From the human T2T-CHM13v2.0 reference genome, Homo sapiens, in NCBI GenBank assembly GCA_009914755.4, contig CP068257.2:34816001-34880000 (forward strand): 64,000 nt of DNA, given 5' to 3'. Position 1 is the first letter of the stretch. Each line of letters starts with the position of its first letter. Shown piece after piece: positions 5,506 through 64,000 of this stretch. The notes under the pieces are model-generated. The model saw only the letters and a list, made by a program, of their open reading frames with translations, searched no databases and was not told the DNA's origin. The position numbers and the translations under genes are program-made.

Positions 5506-6120
5506 TTTTTTTCCAGTTTATGGTTACCTTTTGATTTTTAAGTGGTTTTTCTTGCCAACTTTAAATTCTGTATTTATTACATAGTTAAATTTGTCAGTTT
5601 TGTTCTTTTTTGCTTGGAAAGGCCTTCATCACCCCAATATTATAAAAATATTCATTTTCTTCTATGTTTTATAGTTTCTTTTTAAGATCGAATATTTGAT
5701 CTCTATAGAGTTATTCTGGTATCAGAAGAGAGGTTGAAAGCCAGGCTTTATTTTCCAAGTGGTTAGCCAGCTGTTTCAACACCATTTCTTGAACAATTTA
5801 TTTTTCCCCAATCAATTTAAAATGCCACTCTTATTATTCAATGAATATCCACATATTGGTGGCTCCATTTCTGAATTATTTTTTGTTCCATGAGTCTACC
5901 TATGAATTTGTCTACTGCTGTACCAGTACCATACTGTTTTAATCACTGTAGCTTTATGTGTCGGTTAGGAAGCCTTTCTGTTGCCAGTGCTGGAAAATCC
6001 ATCTTAAACTGGTTTACGCACAGGGCAATGTATTGACTCAAATAAATGAAAAGACCGGGAGTGCTGAAAGTCACCAGGATCCTTTCTTTTTCCGTCACTT
6101 GACTTTGCTCCCAAACTACG

Positions 6121-6330
6121 CCAGAGCCCGTCTCTTTGAAGGTTCAAGTCCAGCTGCCTCTCTCTGGCTGCTGCACGAGCCCTGTTGGCTCTTATGGGCA
6201 TTAATGGGATCACAGGCACATCCTGGGGCAGGCCTGAGTCAATGCCAGGGTGGAGTCAGCTTCACCCAAAGTACTTGGGCTAAGAGGGAAAATGGGGTCC
6301 CACGCAAGGAAAGTGGGTGTGTCACCGGAA
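6121..6330. repeat. Arm A of a ~210-bp inverted repeat (partner at 8505-8712)
   Basis: Reverse complement of 6121-6330 aligns to 8505-8712 at about 85% identity (e.g. gcccaagtactttgggtgaagct...ggcattgactcaggcctgccccaggatg...cccattaatgcc). Confidence 0.8.
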
Positions 6331-6473
6331 TGGAAGGTAAGAGCCAGTAGTAGCTGGGCAGTGAGACCAAAGGATGTCTTCCATTAGTGAATCACTGTCG
6401 GTCCCCTGCAGACCATGCGTCCCTTGTTTCTCCTCATTTCCATAAATTCCCTGGTTATTCTCATGTGTTAATT

Positions 6474-7892: not shown

Positions 7893-8539
<647 letters not shown>

Positions 8540-8748
8540 TGTTTCCCTCTCAGCCCAAGTACTTTGGGTGAAGCTAACTCCACTCTGGCATTGACTCAGG
8601 CCTGCCCCAGGATGGGCCTGCGACCCCATTAATGCCAATAAGAGCAAGTGGGGTTCACGAAGCAGCCAAAGAGAGGCAGCTGGACTTGAACCTGGGAAGA
8701 GACAGGCTCTGGCTTAGGTTGGGAACAAGGTTGAGTGACAGAAGTTAG

Positions 8749-27576: not shown

Positions 27577-28311
<735 letters not shown>

Positions 28312-30586: not shown

Positions 30587-30973
30587 TGATAGGGTTTGGA
30601 TTTGTGTCCCCACCCAAATCTCATGTCGAATGGCAGTCCCCAGTGTTGGAGGAAGGGCCTGGTGGGAAGCAAATGAATCACGGGGGTGGACCTCCCCCTT
30701 GCTCTTCTTGTGATAGTGAGTGAGTTCTCACGAGATCTGGTTGTTTAAAAGTGTGCAGCACCTGCCTGCTCCCCTCTCTCTCTTCCTCCTTCTCCGGCCG
30801 TGTCATGCCTGCTTCCCCTTTGCCTTCTGCCGTGATTGTAAGTTTCCTAAGGCCTCCCCAGCCACGCTTCCTGTACAGCTTGTGAGAGCCAATGAAACCT
30901 CTTTTCTTTATAAATTAACCAGTCTCAGGTAGTTCTTTGACTCAGGTTGCATTGCGAGAACGGACTGATACAC
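30587..30973 (+). mobile_element. ERVL-MaLR solo LTR, MST-family (MSTA/MSTB-like)
   Basis: Begins tgatagggtttgg.tttgtgtccccacccaaatctcatg..; contains ..gtgatagtgagtgagttctcacgagatctggttgtttaaaag..ttataaattaaccagtctcaggta..; ends ..gaacggactgatacac. Confidence 0.75.
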
Positions 30974-32751
30974 CGAGTATTTTTCTGCTGCTGTTTTTCT
31001 GCTGCTGCTTTGGGTGACTATTTGTTCACAGCCCAGAATTTGCCACACGCACTATGCACGATGCTGGCTTTGCACAAAGCCTCTCTTCCCTCCACTCAGC
31101 AAGCACTCACTCTGTCCAGGGGCTAGGGACGCCATCACAGTCCCTGCTGGCCAGAGAAGGACCGGGGCCGGCTGTCCTATGCTCACTGCCCTGGGGGAGG
31201 TGCTGGCAACAAGGCCAAGGTGGCCACCCTGATAGGCACAGCCAGAGGGGGTGCCAGCGGACCCACCCTGCACCCTGAGCACACCGATGGCACCAGCTGA
31301 CTGAGCCTGAGCATGGTTTGAACACTGACACATTTCCTAGTTTATTCCCAACAACCTAATGTGGCAGTGACTGTTACCATCCCCTTTTTACACATGGGGA
31401 AACGAGAGGAGCAGAGGATGAAAGTTCTGTGCCTGGCCTGGCTAGTGTTCTCCTTGCTGTCATTTCCCCTTTAAGAAACACTACCTGCTTCAATGACATA
31501 GGACTGAAGTTAGTGTAAGGGCTGAGGGATGGTGTGAGCAACAGATTCTCCTTCCCACAGAGATCTCAGAACAATGGCCTTGCCCCTTTTGCAGTGGTTT
31601 GGGCAGCCAGGGCAACCAACTGCCCTGCTTTGCTAGGGACTGAGGGGTTGCCCAGGACAGGGACCTTCAGGGCTGAAACTAAGACAGTCCCAAGGAAACC
31701 AGGACCAGAGGCTCCTCCAGGTGCCCAGATCTCCGAATGGCCTCTGAGATCTCTTCCTGCCCTGCTTTGAGGCTGCCTCAAGGCTGACGGCCACACAGGG
31801 TGTCCCTGGTCCAAGCATAATGGGGCTTCTTGCAGCTCTCACTGTCAAGGTCAATAATTAAGTATACAGACCCTAAAGAATGTGGCATAAAAGCCAAGCC
31901 CATTAGGCTAGGCAAGTGGACCAGAGGTTTATTGGAGGTCTAAATATTTATGGAGAGCAATGATGGCTAATTTTAGAAACCATTAGGTTGCTATTTTTAA
32001 ACGTGTGCTATAAGGATTTGCTAATTTAAGAAGTGAGTGTTAATGAGCCCCCAACTCCCAGACACAAGCTCCCCAACCTGCTTTCCTTCTTCCTTACCAG
32101 CAGCTGCTACTGGCATTAGGTAATAATTCAACTTCCCCGCAACTACTTTTCACTTTGGGGCCTTTCAAGGGAAAAACAACTTTAACTGAACGCATCTCCC
32201 TGGAAGCCACATAAAATTCCTCCGTGATGCTCCGGAAGCGCCCTGCCCTGCAGGGCTGTTTGTATAGGAAGGAACTAGCCCAAGCCTGGCCTCCCAGGGG
32301 GAGCAGCCCATGCAGGGCTGAACTGGTGTTCACCTGTGGGCTACCATTTTCCTGCAGCCACGTGTGTGCATGTGGGAAGATTTGCTAGAGAGATACGGAT
32401 CCAAAACAAATAGGGTTCCAAGCATCAAGCTCTAGAAAGCCCTCGACAGGCTGAGTAGTGGTGGGAAGGCAGAATCTAACAAGATGTGTTAGAGGATCAG
32501 TACTGGGTCCTGCATTTGGGTTCACAAAACCCCAAAAGTACAATCCTGGGTGGGGAGTATGTGGCTTAGCTGCACCTGAGAGCAGGATTTAGGGCTGAGT
32601 TTCCCAACGACAGCATCTTGGAATGCTGCATTTGCAGGATGTCTTGTGTGGAGGACACAAATGTCAAATATGTTTAAGAAAACCTGCGTGACTGTAGGAC
32701 TTCTCATAGCTGGAAACGTGTCAATGTGCATCGTGACTCTCCCAGGAAATG

Positions 32752-32875
32752 TCTCATGGGCAGCATCCGCTAAACTTATTTGACTAGAGACACCCCCCTG
32801 CACCCCCTTTACCAAAGAACAATTTGCAATGAAATCACTTTGGCACAATAACTTGGACTTGGCAATGGTGAGATA
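32752..32875. repeat. Left arm of a ~125-bp inverted repeat (partner at 34141-34260)
   Basis: tctcatgggcagcatccgctaaacttatttgactagagacacccccctgcaccccctttaccaaagaacaatttgcaatgaaatcactttggcacaataacttggac..aatggtgagata; about 88% identity to the reverse complement of 34141-34260. Confidence 0.85.
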
Positions 32876-32886
32876 GAGTGGGTTGC

Positions 32887-33745
32887 TGTATTAGTTTGTT
32901 CTCATGCTGCTATGAAGAACTGCCCGAGACGGGTAATTTATAAAGGAAAGAGGTTTAATTGACTCACAGTTCCGCAGGACTGGGGAGGCCTCAGGAAACT
33001 TACAATCCTGGCAGAAGGTGAAGCAAACACATCCTCTTTACATGGCAGCAGGAAGGAGAAGAATGAGGGCTGAGCCGAGGGTGAGGCCCCTTATAAAACC
33101 ATCAGATCTCATGAGAACTTACTCACTATCATGAGAATAGCATGGTGGAAACCACCGACATGATTCAATTACCTCCCACTGAGTCCCTCCCCACGACACG
33201 TGGGGATTATGGGAACTACAATTCAAGATGAGATTTGGATGGGGACACAGACAAACCATATCATTCTGCCCTGGCCCCTCTCAAATCTCATGTCCTCACA
33301 TTTCAAAACACAATCATGTCCTTCCAACAGTCCCCCAAGGACTTAACTCATTCCAGCATTAACTCAAAAGTCCAAGTCCAAAGTCTCGTTTGAGACAAGG
33401 CAAGTCCCTTCTGCCTATGAATCTACAACATCAAAAGCAAATTAGTTACTTCCTAGATAGAATGGGGGTACAGGCATTAGGTAAATACCCCTATTCCAAA
33501 TGAGAGAAATTGACCAAAACAAAGAGGCTACAGGCCCCATGCAAGTTCGAAATCCAATAGGGCAGTCATTAAACCTTAGAGTTTTGGTCGACTTCATCCC
33601 CAGCAGAGAGAGTATCAGAAAACGACAGAGCGGTAAAGAATTTTGAAAATCTGTGAAAGGCAATTGTGAAATGCTAGAGCTGCTATAGGCCCTTCCAACT
33701 GGCTCTGGTTTCAGGATCACCAGCTCTGAAGGGAGGGGGTTTTTC
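32887..33745 (-). mobile_element. ERVL-MaLR element of the THE1/MST family: 3' LTR (32887-33262) plus adjoining internal sequence
   Basis: Plus strand reads the antisense LTR tgtattagtttgttctcatgctgctatgaagaactgcccgagacgggtaatttataaaggaaagaggtttaattgactcacagttccgcag...ggggacacagacaaaccatatca. It is followed by antisense MaLR-internal sequence (..catgtcctcacatttcaaaacacaatcatgtccttccaacagtcccccaag..). Confidence 0.75.
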
Positions 33746-34140
33746 TGTGTGTGTCCATATAAACTTTTATGTTGTCTCCCTCTGTTTTCTCTGAGCTATG
33801 TTTTTCTTTAAAAAAGCAGGGTTCTGGAGCACACAGTAGGGTGCCCTCATTTTGCTCACCTCCTGGCCCACCTGGACCCCAGCTGCGTCAACTTTGGCTC
33901 CAAATTAATCATCATTTCAACAGCAGTGGCCATGGGGATCGCCTGGCCAGGACTGAGGGGTGGACGTGTTGTTTACCAGCCTGCGTCTTGACTGCCTGGG
34001 GTCCCTCCCTGGGCATGTCTGTTTCATCCTTCACTTTGTCCTATCTTCAGAAGTCCTTTCTCTAGTTCTTCAGGGTGTGTGCTGGGGCCTCTGTCAGTCC
34101 AGGCTTCTTGGAGGGGTGCGGGGGTGGGACGAGGCCACCC

Positions 34141-34260
34141 TATCTCACCATTGGTCCAAGTGACTGTGCCAAAGTGATTTTACTGCAAGTTCTTCTTTGG
34201 TAAAGGCGGTGGTGGGGGGTGTCTCTAGTCAAATAAGTTTAATGGATGCTGCATATGAGA
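34141..34260. repeat. Right arm of the ~125-bp inverted repeat, itself flanked by a 33-bp direct repeat
   Basis: Reverse complement tctcatatgcagcatccattaaacttatttgactagagacacc... aligns to 32752-32875. The direct repeats ccaggcttcttggaggggtgc.gggg/a.tgggacg/atg lie at 34099-34131 and 34261-34293. Confidence 0.85.
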
Positions 34261-34894
34261 CCAGGCTTCTTGGAGGGGTGCAGGGATGGGATGGGTGGGG
34301 TGTTTGAGTCCCTTACTCTCCTTAACCCTCAGCAGTCTCACCTGCTACTGTCACCTCATCCCTTGCAAAATCAGCCCCTGTGATGAAAGCTTTCCTATGG
34401 ACACACATTGCTCCGTGGCCCTTGTCTACCCACCTTGGTGAAAGAAATGTCAGCCCCAGATGGGAGGGGTGGAGGACATCAGCGGGGAGCTGGGGCACAA
34501 GCCAGGTGTGTGGTGGAAGTTTCTTTACCCAGAACTGCCCTGAGCCCTACTGTGCAGGTAGAGAATTGGAGGATGTGGCCACCAGTGCCTTTTGCCTGCC
34601 ATGTGGTCTGAATGGCTCTCGAGATGTTTGGGAACGAGCCATTATATATGTTTGCCCTCAAATGCTCTGACATGATGTTGGGTCCATTATAGAAACAGCG
34701 TAAAACTTGATTTGCTTTCTGTAAACTTATTAGAGAAAAATGAAGTGCCACCTTCAAATGAACATAGTCATTGGCCCTTCAACGTTGATGTTCAGCCACT
34801 TCAGAAAATGTCTGGTTCAAAAACCTGAATGTCCTCACTGTCACCCCAACCAAATGGCCTCTTCATTACTGTTTAGCTATTTCATAAATGCTTT

Positions 34895-35186
34895 AGGCTG
34901 GAGATGGTGGCTCACACTTGTAATCCCAGCATTTTGGGAGGCTGAGGTGGGCAGATCACCTGAGGTCGGGAGTTTGAGACCAGCCTGGCCAACATGATGA
35001 AACCCCGTCTCTACTAAAAATACAAAAATTAGCCGGGTGTGGTGATGCATGCCTGTAATCCCAGCTACTTGGAGGCTGAGGGAGGAGAATCGCTTGAAGG
35101 TTGCAGTGAGCTAAGATTGCACCACTGTACTCTAGCCTGGGTGACAGAGTGAGACTCTGTCTCAAACAAAAGAAAATAAACAAAAT
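34895..35186 (+). mobile_element. Alu SINE
   Basis: TSD cataaatgctt on both sides. Confidence 0.9.
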
Positions 35187-52454: not shown

Positions 52455-54030
<1,576 letters not shown>

Positions 54031-62713: not shown

Positions 62714-62912
62714 GTCAGGGTTTCTAGAGCCTGTGCTCTATCTGAAATGATTTAGAAGCCTTTCTTCTAGGGACGAATCCCTCCAAATTTAGAACCAGGC
62801 AGGAGATTTAGGCACAAGAGCATCCCCTGCTCCCCCTTCCTAGTCTAAATCAGATGACATGGACCCCTGAGAGCGAATGCTTGCAAATCACTCAGGATAC
62901 CCGCCCAGCCAA

Positions 62913-63552
62913 TGGAGAAGAAAGCAGAGGAAGGAAGGAAAGAAGGGTGGAAGGAAGGAAGGGAGGAGGGGAGGAAGGGAGGGAGGAAGGGAGGAAGGAA
63001 GGGAGGGAGGAAGGGAGGAAGGGAGGGAGGGAGGGAGGGAGGAAGGGAGGGAGGAAGGGAGGGAGGGAGGAAGGGAGGGAGGGAGGAAGGGAGGGAGGAA
63101 GGGAGGGAGGGAGGGAGGGAGGAAGGGAGGGAGGGAGGGAGGGAGGGAGGGAGGAAGGGAGGGAGGTAGGGAGGGAGGGAGGGAGGGAGGGAGGGAGGGA
63201 GGAAGGGAGGGAGGGAGGGAGGAAGGGAGGGAGGGAGGAAAGAAGGGAGGAAGGAAGGGAGGGAGGGAGGAAGGGAGGGAGGGAGGGAGGAAGGGAGGGA
63301 GGGAGGAAGGAAGGGAGGGAGGGAGGAAGGGAGGGAGGGAGGGAGGAAGGGAGGGAGGAAGGGAGGGAGGGAGGAAGGGAGGTAGGGAGGGAGGGAGGGA
63401 GGGAGGGAGGGAGGAAGGGAGGGAGGGAGGGAGGAAGGGAGGGAGGAAGGAAGGGAGGGAGGGAGGGAGGGAGGAAGGGAGGGAGGAAGGGAGGGAGGGA
63501 GGGAGGGAGGAAGGGAGGGAGGGAGGGAGGGAGGAAGGGAGGGAGGCAGGCG
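62913..63552. repeat. Long (GGAA)n/(GGGA)n polypurine microsatellite, about 640 bp
   Basis: Uninterrupted purine strand built from ggaa/ggga units with a few t/c interruptions. It explains the 200-300 aa repeat-peptide ORFs (GREGGREG.. on plus, PSLPPSLP.. on minus) at 62845-63747. Confidence 0.95.
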
Positions 63553-64000
63553 GCAGGCACACGCACACAGGCTCTCTTTGCTTTCCAACAGGAAGGGGCT
63601 CAGGGTCTGTTTTCTTTTCCCTTCCTTTCAGATGGATCTTTCATATCTCCAATAACTCTTATCTTTCAGCAAACTCCAACAGGCCCCAAACGAGCTGAGA
63701 AAATATCCAACTTCAAAGGTTTTGCACAAATCATCTTAAAGGCCTGACCTAAGCCCGGAAAGCCGGAACGAAGCCCAGAAATCAGTCCTCATTTCATCGC
63801 CGTTTAGCCAAGACACCTTTCCCGTCCACAGATCACATCTGCCCCCTTCTGCCCCCGCCCAGGTCCCAACCACCTTGAGACACCTGCGTGATCCATCCTC
63901 AAAGCAATGAGTTAGGAGCCGCACTCCTGGTCCTTGGCCGGTGGCTTCAGTGTTATTCCGGGGGGCTGGGTGGGGGCACCTGTGGGGACTGCCCCGTGAG

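What the first reader, a model, noticed from the sequence alone, without database searches (positions are those of the whole stretch)
32752..34293. Second inverted-repeat structure: 125-bp arms flank a THE1/MST MaLR insertion, and the right arm is itself bracketed by 33-bp direct repeats
The left arm 32752-32875 and the reverse complement of the right arm 34141-34260 are about 88% identical, including tctcat..gcagcatcc..taaacttatttgactagagacacc..ctttaccaaagaa.aa.ttgca.t.aaatcactttggcaca. The 1.26-kb core starts, 11 bp after the left arm, with a minus-strand THE1-like LTR plus internal sequence (32887-33745), followed by about 400 bp of unique sequence. The right arm sits between near-identical direct repeats ccaggcttcttggaggggtgc.ggg..tggga.g (34099-34131 and 34261-34293). 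This looks like an insertion of the inverted copy with a duplicated junction. A 33-bp duplication is too long for a classical TSD, so it suggests replication-based template switching or microhomology-mediated repair. Finding two such local fold-back structures in one 64-kb window is unusual enough to check.
Basis: seen in the sequence. Interest (0 to 1): 0.5.

Follow-up and report, generated by a model that had tools for sequence, protein, structure and literature searches.

The report
Ancient inverted copy insertion near CLDN14
About 4.5–6 kb upstream of the human claudin-14 coding exon, a roughly 130-bp stretch was copied backwards and pasted about 0.6 kb away, with a 35-bp duplication of the landing site, in the common ancestor of monkeys and apes; it is a real but ordinary fossil of a DNA copying or repair error.

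Summary
The arms 32752-32883 and 34134-34260 are inverted copies, 86-87.5% identical (blastn E 2.5e-40). The right arm is bracketed by 35-bp direct repeats (34099-34133 and 34261-34295). The window is human CLDN14.

I fetched the orthologous upstream region from nine mammals. All six anthropoids (human, siamang, two Old World monkeys, two New World monkeys) carry both arms, both repeats and the THE1 insert. Tarsier, mouse lemur and dog carry only the left arm and one copy of the repeat, a clean empty site. Tree shrew also has only the left arm.

On a tree, the right arms group with the anthropoid left arms, and they share those arms' lineage-specific indels. So the right arm is a derived inverted copy of the neighbouring left arm. 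It was inserted with a 35-bp target duplication in the anthropoid stem, and it has decayed neutrally since.

It is not a transposon, not a retrocopy (no poly(A), no L1 cleavage site) and not a simple repeat. The target overlaps a G-quadruplex motif.

The best reading is a one-off template-switch or break-repair event. Interest is low to moderate: a new example of a known kind.

The parts
32752..32883 (+). Left arm (L), the ancestral source sequence of the inverted copy
   Evidence: It is present at the orthologous position in dog, tree shrew, mouse lemur, tarsier and all six anthropoids. It is collinear with a 1.3-kb block (31544-32860) that aligns to dog at 73%.
32750..32751 (+). Two bases just left of L, ancestrally GG (TG in human). 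They give a 2-nt microhomology with the CC that starts the target at junction J2
   Evidence: Most primates have AAAGG|TCTC at this point. The rc(L)/target junction reads GAGA|CCAGG.
32887..33263 (-). THE1-type (ERVL-MaLR) LTR in the same orientation as CLDN14. It was inserted 3 bp to the right of the end of L
   Evidence: On the minus strand it starts TG and ends CA. Diverged family members lie at window 30587-30937 and in L001, L009 and L011. It is present in all six anthropoids and absent in tarsier, mouse lemur and dog. The THE1 name rests on my recall of the consensus; no Dfam-type tool was available.
33264..33575 (-). Truncated MaLR internal sequence attached to the LTR
   Evidence: It is co-present with the LTR in anthropoids. 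Homology to mouse lemur, tarsier and dog resumes at about 33580-33598.
33580..34098 (.). Ancestral single-copy spacer between L and the target site
   Evidence: It aligns to mouse lemur (33597-34128), tarsier, dog and tree shrew. Before the THE1 insertion, the start of L lay about 0.73-0.82 kb from the target in mouse lemur and dog.
34099..34133 (+). DR1, the first copy of the 35-bp target T (ancestral CCAGGCTTCTTGGAGGGGTGCAGGGGTGGGACGGG)
   Evidence: T is single-copy in tarsier, mouse lemur and dog. Old World monkeys have secondarily lost most of DR1.
34134..34260 (-). Right arm (R), the derived inverted copy of L
   Evidence: It is absent from tarsier, mouse lemur, tree shrew and dog, and present in six anthropoids. 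The R sequences form a clade that follows the species tree and groups with the anthropoid L sequences. R lacks the ~27-bp segment that mouse lemur and dog L retain, and it shares the TGGG insertion of anthropoid L.
34261..34295 (+). DR2, the second copy of the 35-bp target T
   Evidence: Both DR1 and DR2 align to the same 28-bp stretch of dog DNA.
34275..34300 (+). Canonical G-quadruplex motif spanning the right part of T and its flank. The DR1/R junction falls right after the fourth G-run
   Evidence: A regex scan finds it. Such motifs cover only 0.4-1.3% of window positions.

Best explanation
This is a fixed mutational scar, not a mobile element or a functional device.

In the stem lineage of anthropoid primates (after the tarsier split, at or shortly before the New World / Old World monkey split), one event copied about 132 bp of ancestral single-copy sequence (L, 32752-32883). 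It copied it in reverse-complement orientation into a site about 0.6 kb away and duplicated 35 bp of that target site on both sides of the insert: X-T-Y became X-T-rc(L)-T-Y. That history is shown by the comparative data.

The mechanism is inferred. A DNA end that had just been extended through T came off its template inside a G-quadruplex-forming run. It primed on the nearby L region of the same-sense strand (a snap-back or inter-strand template switch) and copied it. It was then rejoined at the start of T through a 2-nt CC/GG microhomology, so T was copied twice.

This is the logic of short-range template switching, of FoSTeS/MMBIR, or of an aborted strand-annealing repair finished by polymerase-theta-type end joining. 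I cannot distinguish between these from sequence alone.

A THE1 LTR element inserted 3 bp from the end of L during the same evolutionary interval. The order of the two events is unknown. Since then both arms have decayed at about the neutral rate.
For: Locus: the 239-aa ORF 27577-28296(-) is claudin-14.

Empty site versus filled site: tarsier, mouse lemur and dog have ...GGCCTCTG..|CCAGGC...GGG... once. Human, siamang, macaque, Nasalis, marmoset and Aotus have T-R-T. Tree shrew also has only L.

L is orthologous out to dog.

Arm tree: the R clade mirrors the species tree and sits with the anthropoid L sequences, excluding tarsier, mouse lemur, tree shrew and dog L.

Shared indels: R lacks the ~27-bp segment deleted in haplorhine L, and R carries the anthropoid-specific TGGG.

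Dating and neutrality: L-R identity within species is 82.6-87.5%. Human-marmoset orthologous identity is 84-85% for either arm. 42 columns show one-sided changes against 3 with double changes.

Junctions: J2 is GAGA|CCAGG, with ancestral L flank ...AAAGG|TCTC, giving a 2-nt microhomology. J1 in New World monkeys is GACGGG|ACCCAC, with no filler.

The target overlaps a G4 motif, which covers only 0.4-1.3% of the window.

Literature: the four-point model describes reverse-complement copies made by one switch-and-return (PMC5453318). In C. elegans, G4-induced breaks are repaired by polymerase theta, sometimes with templated inserts (PMC4654259). Tandem duplications there arise from end joining of aborted recombination intermediates (PMC8654963).
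Against: The mechanism cannot be observed 40+ million years later.

J1 shows no microhomology. The extended similarity between the flank of L and the start of T is weak (P about 0.04).

The copy (132 bp) and its distance (about 0.6 kb) are much larger than typical polymerase-theta templated inserts or short template-switch events.

In the four-point survey of human-chimp differences, event types in which the return point lies behind the departure point, as here, were not observed.

The canonical G4 motif is seen in anthropoids only. Its presence at the time of the event is inferred from the DR1/DR2 consensus.

The end of L lying 3 bp from the THE1 edge is unexplained.
Confidence: 0.78

Rival explanations
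1. A free double-stranded copy of L was captured by non-homologous end joining at a staggered break. Two nicks 35 bp apart left 5' overhangs, which were filled in to give the duplication. No polymerase template switch at the site was involved.
For: J1 looks blunt and J2 has only 2 nt of microhomology. Fill-in of a staggered cut is the classical way to make a target duplication.
Against: It needs an extra, unexplained step to produce a free copy of L while leaving L intact. It does not explain why the donor lies only about 0.6 kb away on the same molecule. A 35-nt stagger has no known enzymatic source here.
Confidence: 0.12
2. R is an L1-mediated retrocopy (target-primed reverse transcription) of a fragment of a local transcript, and the 35-bp repeat is its target-site duplication.
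For: The insert is flanked by a direct duplication. L1 target duplications occasionally exceed 30 bp (established knowledge). The region lies inside or upstream of a transcribed gene.
Against: Neither end of R has a poly(A) or A-rich tail in any of the six species. The target boundaries (CAT|CCAGG and GACGGG|TGGGG) do not resemble the TTTT/AA cleavage site.
Confidence: 0.04
3. The two arms are the terminal inverted repeats of a DNA transposon or MITE, or two members of a MER-type family, with THE1 nested inside.
For: The 130-bp inverted arms flanking a 1.25-kb core superficially resemble a long-TIR element. A palindromic MER81/mir-584-like element lies nearby at 31601-31727.
Against: The arms have different ages: L is shared with dog, while R is anthropoid-only. 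The direct repeats bracket only R, not the whole unit. No other copy exists in the window or in about 180 kb of loci. The spacer is ancestral single-copy DNA.
Confidence: 0.02
4. The inverted repeat is maintained because it forms a functional hairpin, for example a long double-stranded stem in CLDN14 pre-mRNA or in an LTR-driven transcript.
For: The arms pair with each other in the minimum-energy fold of the 1.5-kb minus-sense RNA (117 of 133 bases, duplex -198 kcal/mol). Three columns show matching double changes in New World monkeys, against about 0.25 expected on my rough estimate.
Against: 42 columns show one-sided changes. L-R identity equals the neutral orthologous divergence. R carries lineage-specific deletions and insertions: 10-15 bp lost in New World monkeys, 3 bp gained in Old World monkeys, 4 bp lost in apes. 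The three double changes cluster within 24 bp, which fits a short gene-conversion tract better.
Confidence: 0.04
5. The structure is ancient, and R plus one repeat copy was lost precisely, by recombination between the direct repeats, in the tarsier, mouse lemur, tree shrew and dog lineages.
For: Recombination between 35-bp direct repeats would regenerate a clean empty site.
Against: It needs three or four independent precise losses against one gain. R shares haplorhine- and anthropoid-specific indels with L and groups inside anthropoids on the tree. L-R divergence matches the anthropoid crown age, not a boreoeutherian age.
Confidence: 0.02

Closest known systems
Short-range template-switch mutations (four-point model of Löytynoja & Goldman 2017, PMC5453318)
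   Same: One switch-and-return event copies a nearby fragment in reverse complement and creates an inverted repeat. All differences from the ancestral sequence are explained by four points: departure at the right end of T, copy from 32883 to 32752, and return at the left end of T.
   Different: The copied fragment (132 bp) and the distance (about 0.6 kb) exceed the scale that study was built for. Its filters required a copied fragment of only at least 10 bp and switch points within 30 bp of a mutation cluster, and it did not try to model long-range switches. The return point lies 35 bp behind the departure point (order 3-2-4-1), which duplicates T. That study did not observe this class among human-chimp events.
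Snap-back / fold-back templated insertions in polymerase-theta-mediated or synthesis-dependent microhomology-mediated end joining (PMC2943611, PMC5728401, PMC11724301, PMC4912351; titles and abstracts only)
   Same: The inverted insert is templated from sequence flanking the break on the same molecule. One junction uses a tiny terminal microhomology (2 nt).
   Different: Reported fold-back inserts are mostly about 5-34 bp (PMC11724301 abstract), and from general knowledge they usually accompany deletions. Here the insert is 132 bp and comes with a 35-bp duplication and no loss of sequence. Enzyme dependence is untestable.
G-quadruplex-induced breaks repaired by polymerase theta, and tandem duplications from aborted strand-annealing repair (C. 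elegans; PMC4654259, PMC8654963)
   Same: One breakpoint lies inside a G4 motif. A templated insert sits at the junction. The duplication of a short stretch next to the break is what end joining of an over-extended repair intermediate would give.
   Different: Those data come from nematodes, are mostly deletions, and were obtained in mutant backgrounds. This is a single germline event in a primate ancestor.
FoSTeS/MMBIR complex rearrangements with inverted segments, such as DUP-TRP/INV-DUP (PMC11293582; title and abstract only)
   Same: Iterative template switches give an inverted segment flanked by duplicated sequence.
   Different: From general knowledge, those are kilobase-to-megabase events. 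Here the whole change is 162 bp.
L1-mediated insertions with target-site duplications
   Same: An insert is bracketed by a direct duplication of the target.
   Different: There is no poly(A), no endonuclease site and no retroelement sequence. The donor is adjacent genomic DNA.

Membership tests
Template-switch mutation (four-point model) | The inserted fragment is a reverse-complement copy of nearby sequence | tested here: met
   R is the reverse complement of L, 86-87.5% identical today. L lay about 0.6 kb away before the THE1 insertion.
Template-switch mutation (four-point model) | A single switch-and-return explains every difference from the ancestral state | tested here: met
   The ancestral empty site (tarsier, mouse lemur, dog) compared with T-rc(L)-T in six anthropoids requires only four switch points.
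Template-switch mutation (four-point model) | The order of switch points belongs to the classes seen in real data (return point not behind the departure point) | tested here: not met
   The return point lies 35 bp behind the departure point (order 3-2-4-1), which duplicates T. The paper reports that such orders were not observed.
Polymerase-theta / SD-MMEJ snap-back templated insertion | Microhomology at the junctions | tested here: inconclusive
   J2 has 2 nt (CC/GG). J1 has 0 nt in the reconstructed sequence. The extended homeology has P about 0.04.
Polymerase-theta / SD-MMEJ snap-back templated insertion | Short insert (tens of bp) | tested here: not met
   The insert is 132 bp. The published fold-back inserts found here are mostly about 5-34 bp (abstract of PMC11724301).
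Polymerase-theta / SD-MMEJ snap-back templated insertion | Dependence on POLQ | not testable with these tools
   This is a historical germline event.
L1-mediated (TPRT) insertion | Poly(A) tail abutting one copy of the target duplication | tested here: not met
   The ends of R read ...GACGGG|ACCCAC... and ...CATGAGA|CCAGG... in all six species, with no A-run.
L1-mediated (TPRT) insertion | Target cleavage site resembling TTTT/AA | tested here: not met
   The target boundaries are G/C-rich.
DNA transposon / MITE | Both terminal inverted repeats arrive together, and a short (2-10 bp) duplication flanks the whole element | tested here: not met
   L predates the dog-human split, while R is anthropoid-specific. 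The 35-bp repeats flank R only.
DNA transposon / MITE | Multiple dispersed copies in the genome | tested here: inconclusive
   No further copy was found in the 64-kb window or in about 180 kb of loci. The metagenome scan returned 0 hits. No whole-genome or Dfam search was possible.
THE1 / ERVL-MaLR LTR element (the core insert) | LTR with TG...CA termini that belongs to a dispersed family | tested here: met
   The minus strand runs 33263 TGATATGG ... CTAATACA 32887. Diverged copies lie at 30587-30937 and in L001, L009 and L011.
THE1 / ERVL-MaLR LTR element (the core insert) | Match to the curated THE1 consensus (subfamily assignment) | not testable with these tools
   No Repbase or Dfam library was available. 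The THE1 name rests on my recall of the consensus and on the anthropoid-only distribution.

The most novel reading that the evidence does not exclude
This is a germline, primate example of a mutation class that short-range template-switch scans do not see: a small tandem duplication with a long inverted templated insert at its junction, started at a G-quadruplex. That footprint is expected from an aborted strand-annealing repair finished by snap-back synthesis and end joining, and so far it is documented mainly in nematodes and in cancer genomes. If so, a systematic search for 'duplication plus inverted nearby insert' in primate alignments would recover a family of such events. It would also extend the four-point model to the 'return behind departure' orders that were reported as unobserved.
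Probability: 0.3. Interest if true: 0.45.

Novelty: new member of a known kind. Interest (0 to 1): 0.27.

Why it matters
It gives a cleanly resolved and dated example of how a local inverted repeat can be created de novo from single-copy DNA in one step, without any transposon. The donor, the empty site and the filled site are all recovered, the event is placed between the tarsier split and the New World / Old World monkey split, and a G-quadruplex motif sits at the breakpoint. The event has a switch-point order that a genome-wide survey of short events did not find. It is therefore a useful test case for tools that model template switching, and for the idea that G4-triggered, polymerase-theta-type repair shapes primate germline genomes. 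It has no evident function, although it creates a potential 130-bp double-stranded RNA stem upstream of the CLDN14 coding exon, next to a sense-oriented THE1 LTR.

Tried and rejected
I used cluster members instead.
- The exact-match scan of metagenome contigs with the arm core AAACTTATTTGACTAGAGACAC gave 0 hits, which is uninformative.
- An Rfam scan of 31500-35000 found nothing at the arms. It returned only an Alu/SRP hit and a sub-threshold mir-584-like palindrome at 31601-31727.
- I tested for extended homeology between the flank of L and the start of T, as a guide for the template switch. The best match is TTCTGGGAG / TTCTTGGAG, with P about 0.04 against random 20-mers. That is too weak to rely on.
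- I looked for microhomology at J1 under both strand models and found none (reasoning).
- I tried to find out whether the 'LTR alternative promoter' listed for CLDN14 in a review table is this THE1 LTR. The primary catalogue's supplement is not held, and no other paper in the library links CLDN14 and an LTR.
- The paper on the CaSR-responsive CLDN14 promoter gives no coordinates usable here.
- The other fold-back (6090-6339 / 8496-8743) could not be compared across species because it lies more than 10 kb from the only anchoring gene. Its flanks carry no long direct repeat.
- Rejected readings: a MITE or MER pair, an L1 retrocopy, a simple repeat, repeated loss in the outgroups, and a selected hairpin. 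See the rival explanations.
Full report
**1. Where we are.**

The window is human. The ORF at 27577-28296 on the minus strand encodes a 239-aa protein that is 98% identical to macaque and Nasalis claudin-14. It sits in a 90%-identity protein cluster that contains human CLDN14. The finding lies 4.5-6 kb upstream of this single coding exon, in gene orientation. That places it in the 5' intron or alternative-promoter territory of CLDN14. The region is Alu-dense.

**2.

- **Inverted arms.** The repeat finder reports 32751-32858 / 34154-34261 (108 nt, 88%) and 32863-32881 / 34135-34153 (19 nt, 95%). blastn joins them into one 131-column alignment at 86.3% with two 4-bp indels, E = 2.5e-40 in the 64-kb window.
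- **No other copies.** The arm has no other copy in the window or in about 180 kb of orthologous DNA fetched later.
- **Direct repeats.** They match at 31/34. Their 21-nt core occurs exactly twice in the window and never in shuffles. TRF finds no tandem array, so they are not a simple repeat. The third 'copy' listed by the repeat finder (34922-34955, 62%) lies in an Alu and is a chance resemblance.
- **The core insert.** The sequence between the arms begins at 32887 with a minus-strand LTR. Read on the minus strand it runs TG...CA. It has diverged relatives at 30587-30937 and in other primate loci. From memory of the consensus it is THE1-like, but I could not run a repeat library.

**3. Orthologous loci.**

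Using claudin-14 proteins as anchors, I fetched 10 kb upstream of the coding exon from nine species:

| Locus | Species |
|---|---|
| L001 | Macaca fascicularis |
| L005 | Callithrix |
| L006 | Carlito (tarsier) |
| L007 | Microcebus (mouse lemur) |
| L008 | Aotus |
| L009 | Nasalis |
| L010 | Tupaia (tree shrew) |
| L011 | siamang |
| L012 | dog |

All are collinear with the human region.

**4. Which arm is ancestral.**

The left arm (L) is present at the orthologous position in every species, including dog. It lies inside a 1.3-kb block (31544-32860) that aligns to dog at 73%.

The right arm (R) is present in the six anthropoids only. In tarsier, mouse lemur, tree shrew and dog, a query with R finds nothing except the L orthologue, in reverse orientation.

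At the insertion site, tarsier, mouse lemur and dog show a clean empty site. One copy of the repeat (for example tarsier CCAGGCTCTTTAGAGGGCTGCAGGGGTAGGA) directly follows the sequence that precedes DR1 in human. In dog, human DR1 and DR2 both align to the same 28 bp.

So R plus one repeat copy, 162 bp in all, is a derived insertion, and the repeat is a target-site duplication.

**5. R was copied from its neighbour.**

- **Tree.** In a neighbour-joining tree of all arms, the six R sequences form a clade that follows the species tree. This clade groups with the anthropoid L sequences and excludes tarsier, mouse lemur, tree shrew and dog L.
- **First indel.** Mouse lemur and dog L carry a ~27-bp segment (AGAGTCCCTGGAAAGTTTACTGGA) that is missing from tarsier L, from anthropoid L and from every R.
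- **Second indel.** Anthropoid L has GAGTGGGT where the outgroups have GAGTT / GCGTT / GGGCT, and R has GGGTGGGT.

An independent insertion of a dispersed family member would not share its neighbour's private indels.

**6. Date and selection.**

L-R identity within species is 82.6-87.5%. Human-marmoset orthologous identity is 84.8% for L and 83.9% for R. The copy was therefore made at or shortly before the New World / Old World monkey split, and after the tarsier split. By general knowledge this is roughly 40-65 million years ago.

Of 115 gap-free columns, 70 are unchanged, 42 show one-sided changes and 3 show matching double changes. R also carries lineage-specific indels. This is neutral decay, not maintenance of a hairpin.

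The three double changes are all in New World monkeys and fall within 24 bp. I read them as a short gene-conversion tract between the arms.

**7. Anatomy of the event.**

The six species allow a reconstruction.

- **Target.** T = CCAGGCTTCTTGGAGGGGTGCAGGGGTGGGACGGG, 35 bp. The CpG near its end has decayed to CA or TG in different lineages and copies, and is kept in siamang DR1.
- **Junction J1 (DR1 | R).** It reads GACGGG|ACCCACyCTATC in New World monkeys, with no filler. Catarrhines have GACGGGG|CCAC. The copy therefore starts at 32883. I find no microhomology there under either strand model.
- **Junction J2 (R | DR2).** It reads CATGAGA|CCAGGC. The ancestral left flank of L is ...AAAGG|TCTC, so CC/GG is a 2-nt microhomology.
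- **Longer similarity.** The reverse complement of L's flank resembles the start of T (TTCTGGGAG / TTCTTGGAG), but weakly (P about 0.04).
- **Distance.** Before the THE1 insertion, the start of L lay about 0.73-0.82 kb from T, as in mouse lemur and dog.

**8. A possible trigger.**

T and its right flank form a canonical G-quadruplex motif (human 34275-34300; ancestral GGGGTGCAGGGGTGGGACGGGTGGGG). J1 falls immediately after the fourth G-run. Such motifs cover only 1.3% of the window, or 0.4% outside the low-complexity block at its end. The outgroups lack the full motif, so its presence at the time of the event is inferred from the DR1/DR2 consensus.

In C. elegans, unresolved G4 structures cause breaks that are repaired by polymerase theta, sometimes with templated inserts (PMC4654259). 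Tandem duplications there arise when an over-extended recombination intermediate is end-joined instead of annealed (PMC8654963).

**9. Most likely mechanism (inferred).**

A 3' end extended through T and stopped within the G-run. It failed to re-anneal and primed on the single-stranded L region of the same-sense strand. It copied 132 nt and was then joined to the other end at its terminal CC/GG. Fill-in left T on both sides.

In the language of the four-point template-switch model, the order of points is 3-2-4-1. The model allows this, but the human-chimp survey of short events did not observe any order in which point 4 precedes point 1. The authors relate this to the need to reopen newly made duplex (PMC5453318).

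A break-repair route avoids that problem. For this reason I favour it over a simple within-fork switch, but FoSTeS/MMBIR-type replication restart would give the same product.

**10. Rivals.**

- **MITE or MER pair.** Excluded by the different ages of the arms and by the repeats bracketing only R.
- **L1-mediated retrocopy.** Disfavoured: no poly(A), no A-rich tract and no TTTT/AA-like target.
- **Repeated precise loss in four outgroup lineages.** Unparsimonious, and contradicted by the tree and the indels.
- **Capture of a free DNA fragment at a staggered break.** Not excluded, but it needs an unexplained source for the fragment.
- **A selected RNA hairpin.** Not supported, although the arms would pair if co-transcribed: 117 of 133 bases in the minimum-energy fold of the 1.5-kb minus-sense RNA, duplex -198 kcal/mol.

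**11. The THE1 piece.**

It is present in all six anthropoids and absent from tarsier, mouse lemur and dog. It therefore arose in the same interval as the copy, and the order of the two events is unknown.

Human 33580-33800 aligns to the outgroups, so the insert is 32887 to about 33575: an LTR of 377 bp plus about 310 bp of internal sequence, truncated. It does not reach 33745.

Its edge lies 3 bp from the end of L. In tarsier, two Alus have inserted at the same spot, next to an ancestral A-rich tract. Whether this is a local fragile or insertion-prone site or a coincidence is unexplained.

**12. Verdict.**

It is a neutral fossil, at least 40 million years old, of a single template-switch or repair event. 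It is a new, well-resolved member of a known kind of mutation, with two mildly unusual features: the return point behind the departure point, and a G4 motif at the breakpoint.

Noticed in passing
window 27577-28296 (-): This is the complete 239-aa claudin-14 coding exon, which identifies the window as the human CLDN14 locus. The protein sequence is also encoded, unchanged, in assemblies I recall as chimpanzee, bonobo and both orangutans (accession recognition from memory; no DNA was returned).
   Followed up: yes
window 32887-33263 (-): The THE1-type LTR is in the same orientation as CLDN14, about 4.6 kb upstream of the start codon. An LTR-initiated transcript would run straight into the left arm, which carries TTTG|GTAAAG (a plausible splice donor) on the minus strand. 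A review table lists 'CLDN14 - LTR - alternative promoter' (PMC5454887, citing the C-GATE catalogue), but I could not verify that it refers to this LTR.
   Followed up: partly
It has no long flanking direct repeat; only a 10-bp AGAAGTTCTT lies near the right arm. No other copies exist in the window or the fetched loci. It lies outside the DNA I could fetch from other species, so its origin is unresolved.
   Followed up: partly
window 31601-31727 (both strands): A palindromic element gives sub-threshold Rfam hits to mir-584 on both strands (28 and 26 bits against an 80-bit gathering score), as a MER81-type MITE would (that attribution is from memory). It is conserved at the orthologous site out to dog (75%).
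   Followed up: partly
L001 4347-4365 and L009 4231-4249 (Old World monkeys), equivalent to window 34004-34125: Macaque and Nasalis share a secondary deletion of about 105 bp. It removed the end of the spacer and most of DR1, leaving only ...AGGGATAGGGACAG(A/G)G before the right arm.
   Followed up: partly
L006 4640-5330 (tarsier), equivalent to window 32884-32887: Tarsier carries two Alu elements at the same spot where anthropoids carry the THE1 insert and where the copied segment ends, next to an ancestral A-rich tract. Three independent events fall within a few bases of each other.
   Followed up: no
Arm alignment columns 32-55 (window about 32757-32780 and its partner in the right arm), marmoset and Aotus: Three matching double changes occur in both arms of New World monkeys within 24 bp, against 42 one-sided changes elsewhere. 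This is probably a short gene-conversion tract between the inverted arms in the platyrrhine lineage.
   Followed up: partly
L008 (Aotus), right-arm end next to DR2: Aotus has a lineage-specific tandem duplication of about 20 bp at the end of the right arm (GCACACGAGACCT GCGCATGAGACC).
   Followed up: no
window 30587-30937 (+): A second, more diverged MaLR-type LTR, 71.5% identical to the THE1 LTR and in the opposite orientation.
   Followed up: no
window 52920-53330 (-): An ORF whose translation looks to me like the C-terminal half of proteasome subunit PSMD4/S5a (...[24 protein letters not shown]...). I take it to be a processed pseudogene; the identification is from memory and was not tested.
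   Followed up: no
window 62845-63750: A block of about 0.9 kb of purine-rich low-complexity repeats (GGAAGG/GGGAGG-type, self-similar at many offsets). It gives long spurious ORFs on both strands and holds most of the window's G4 motifs.
   Followed up: no
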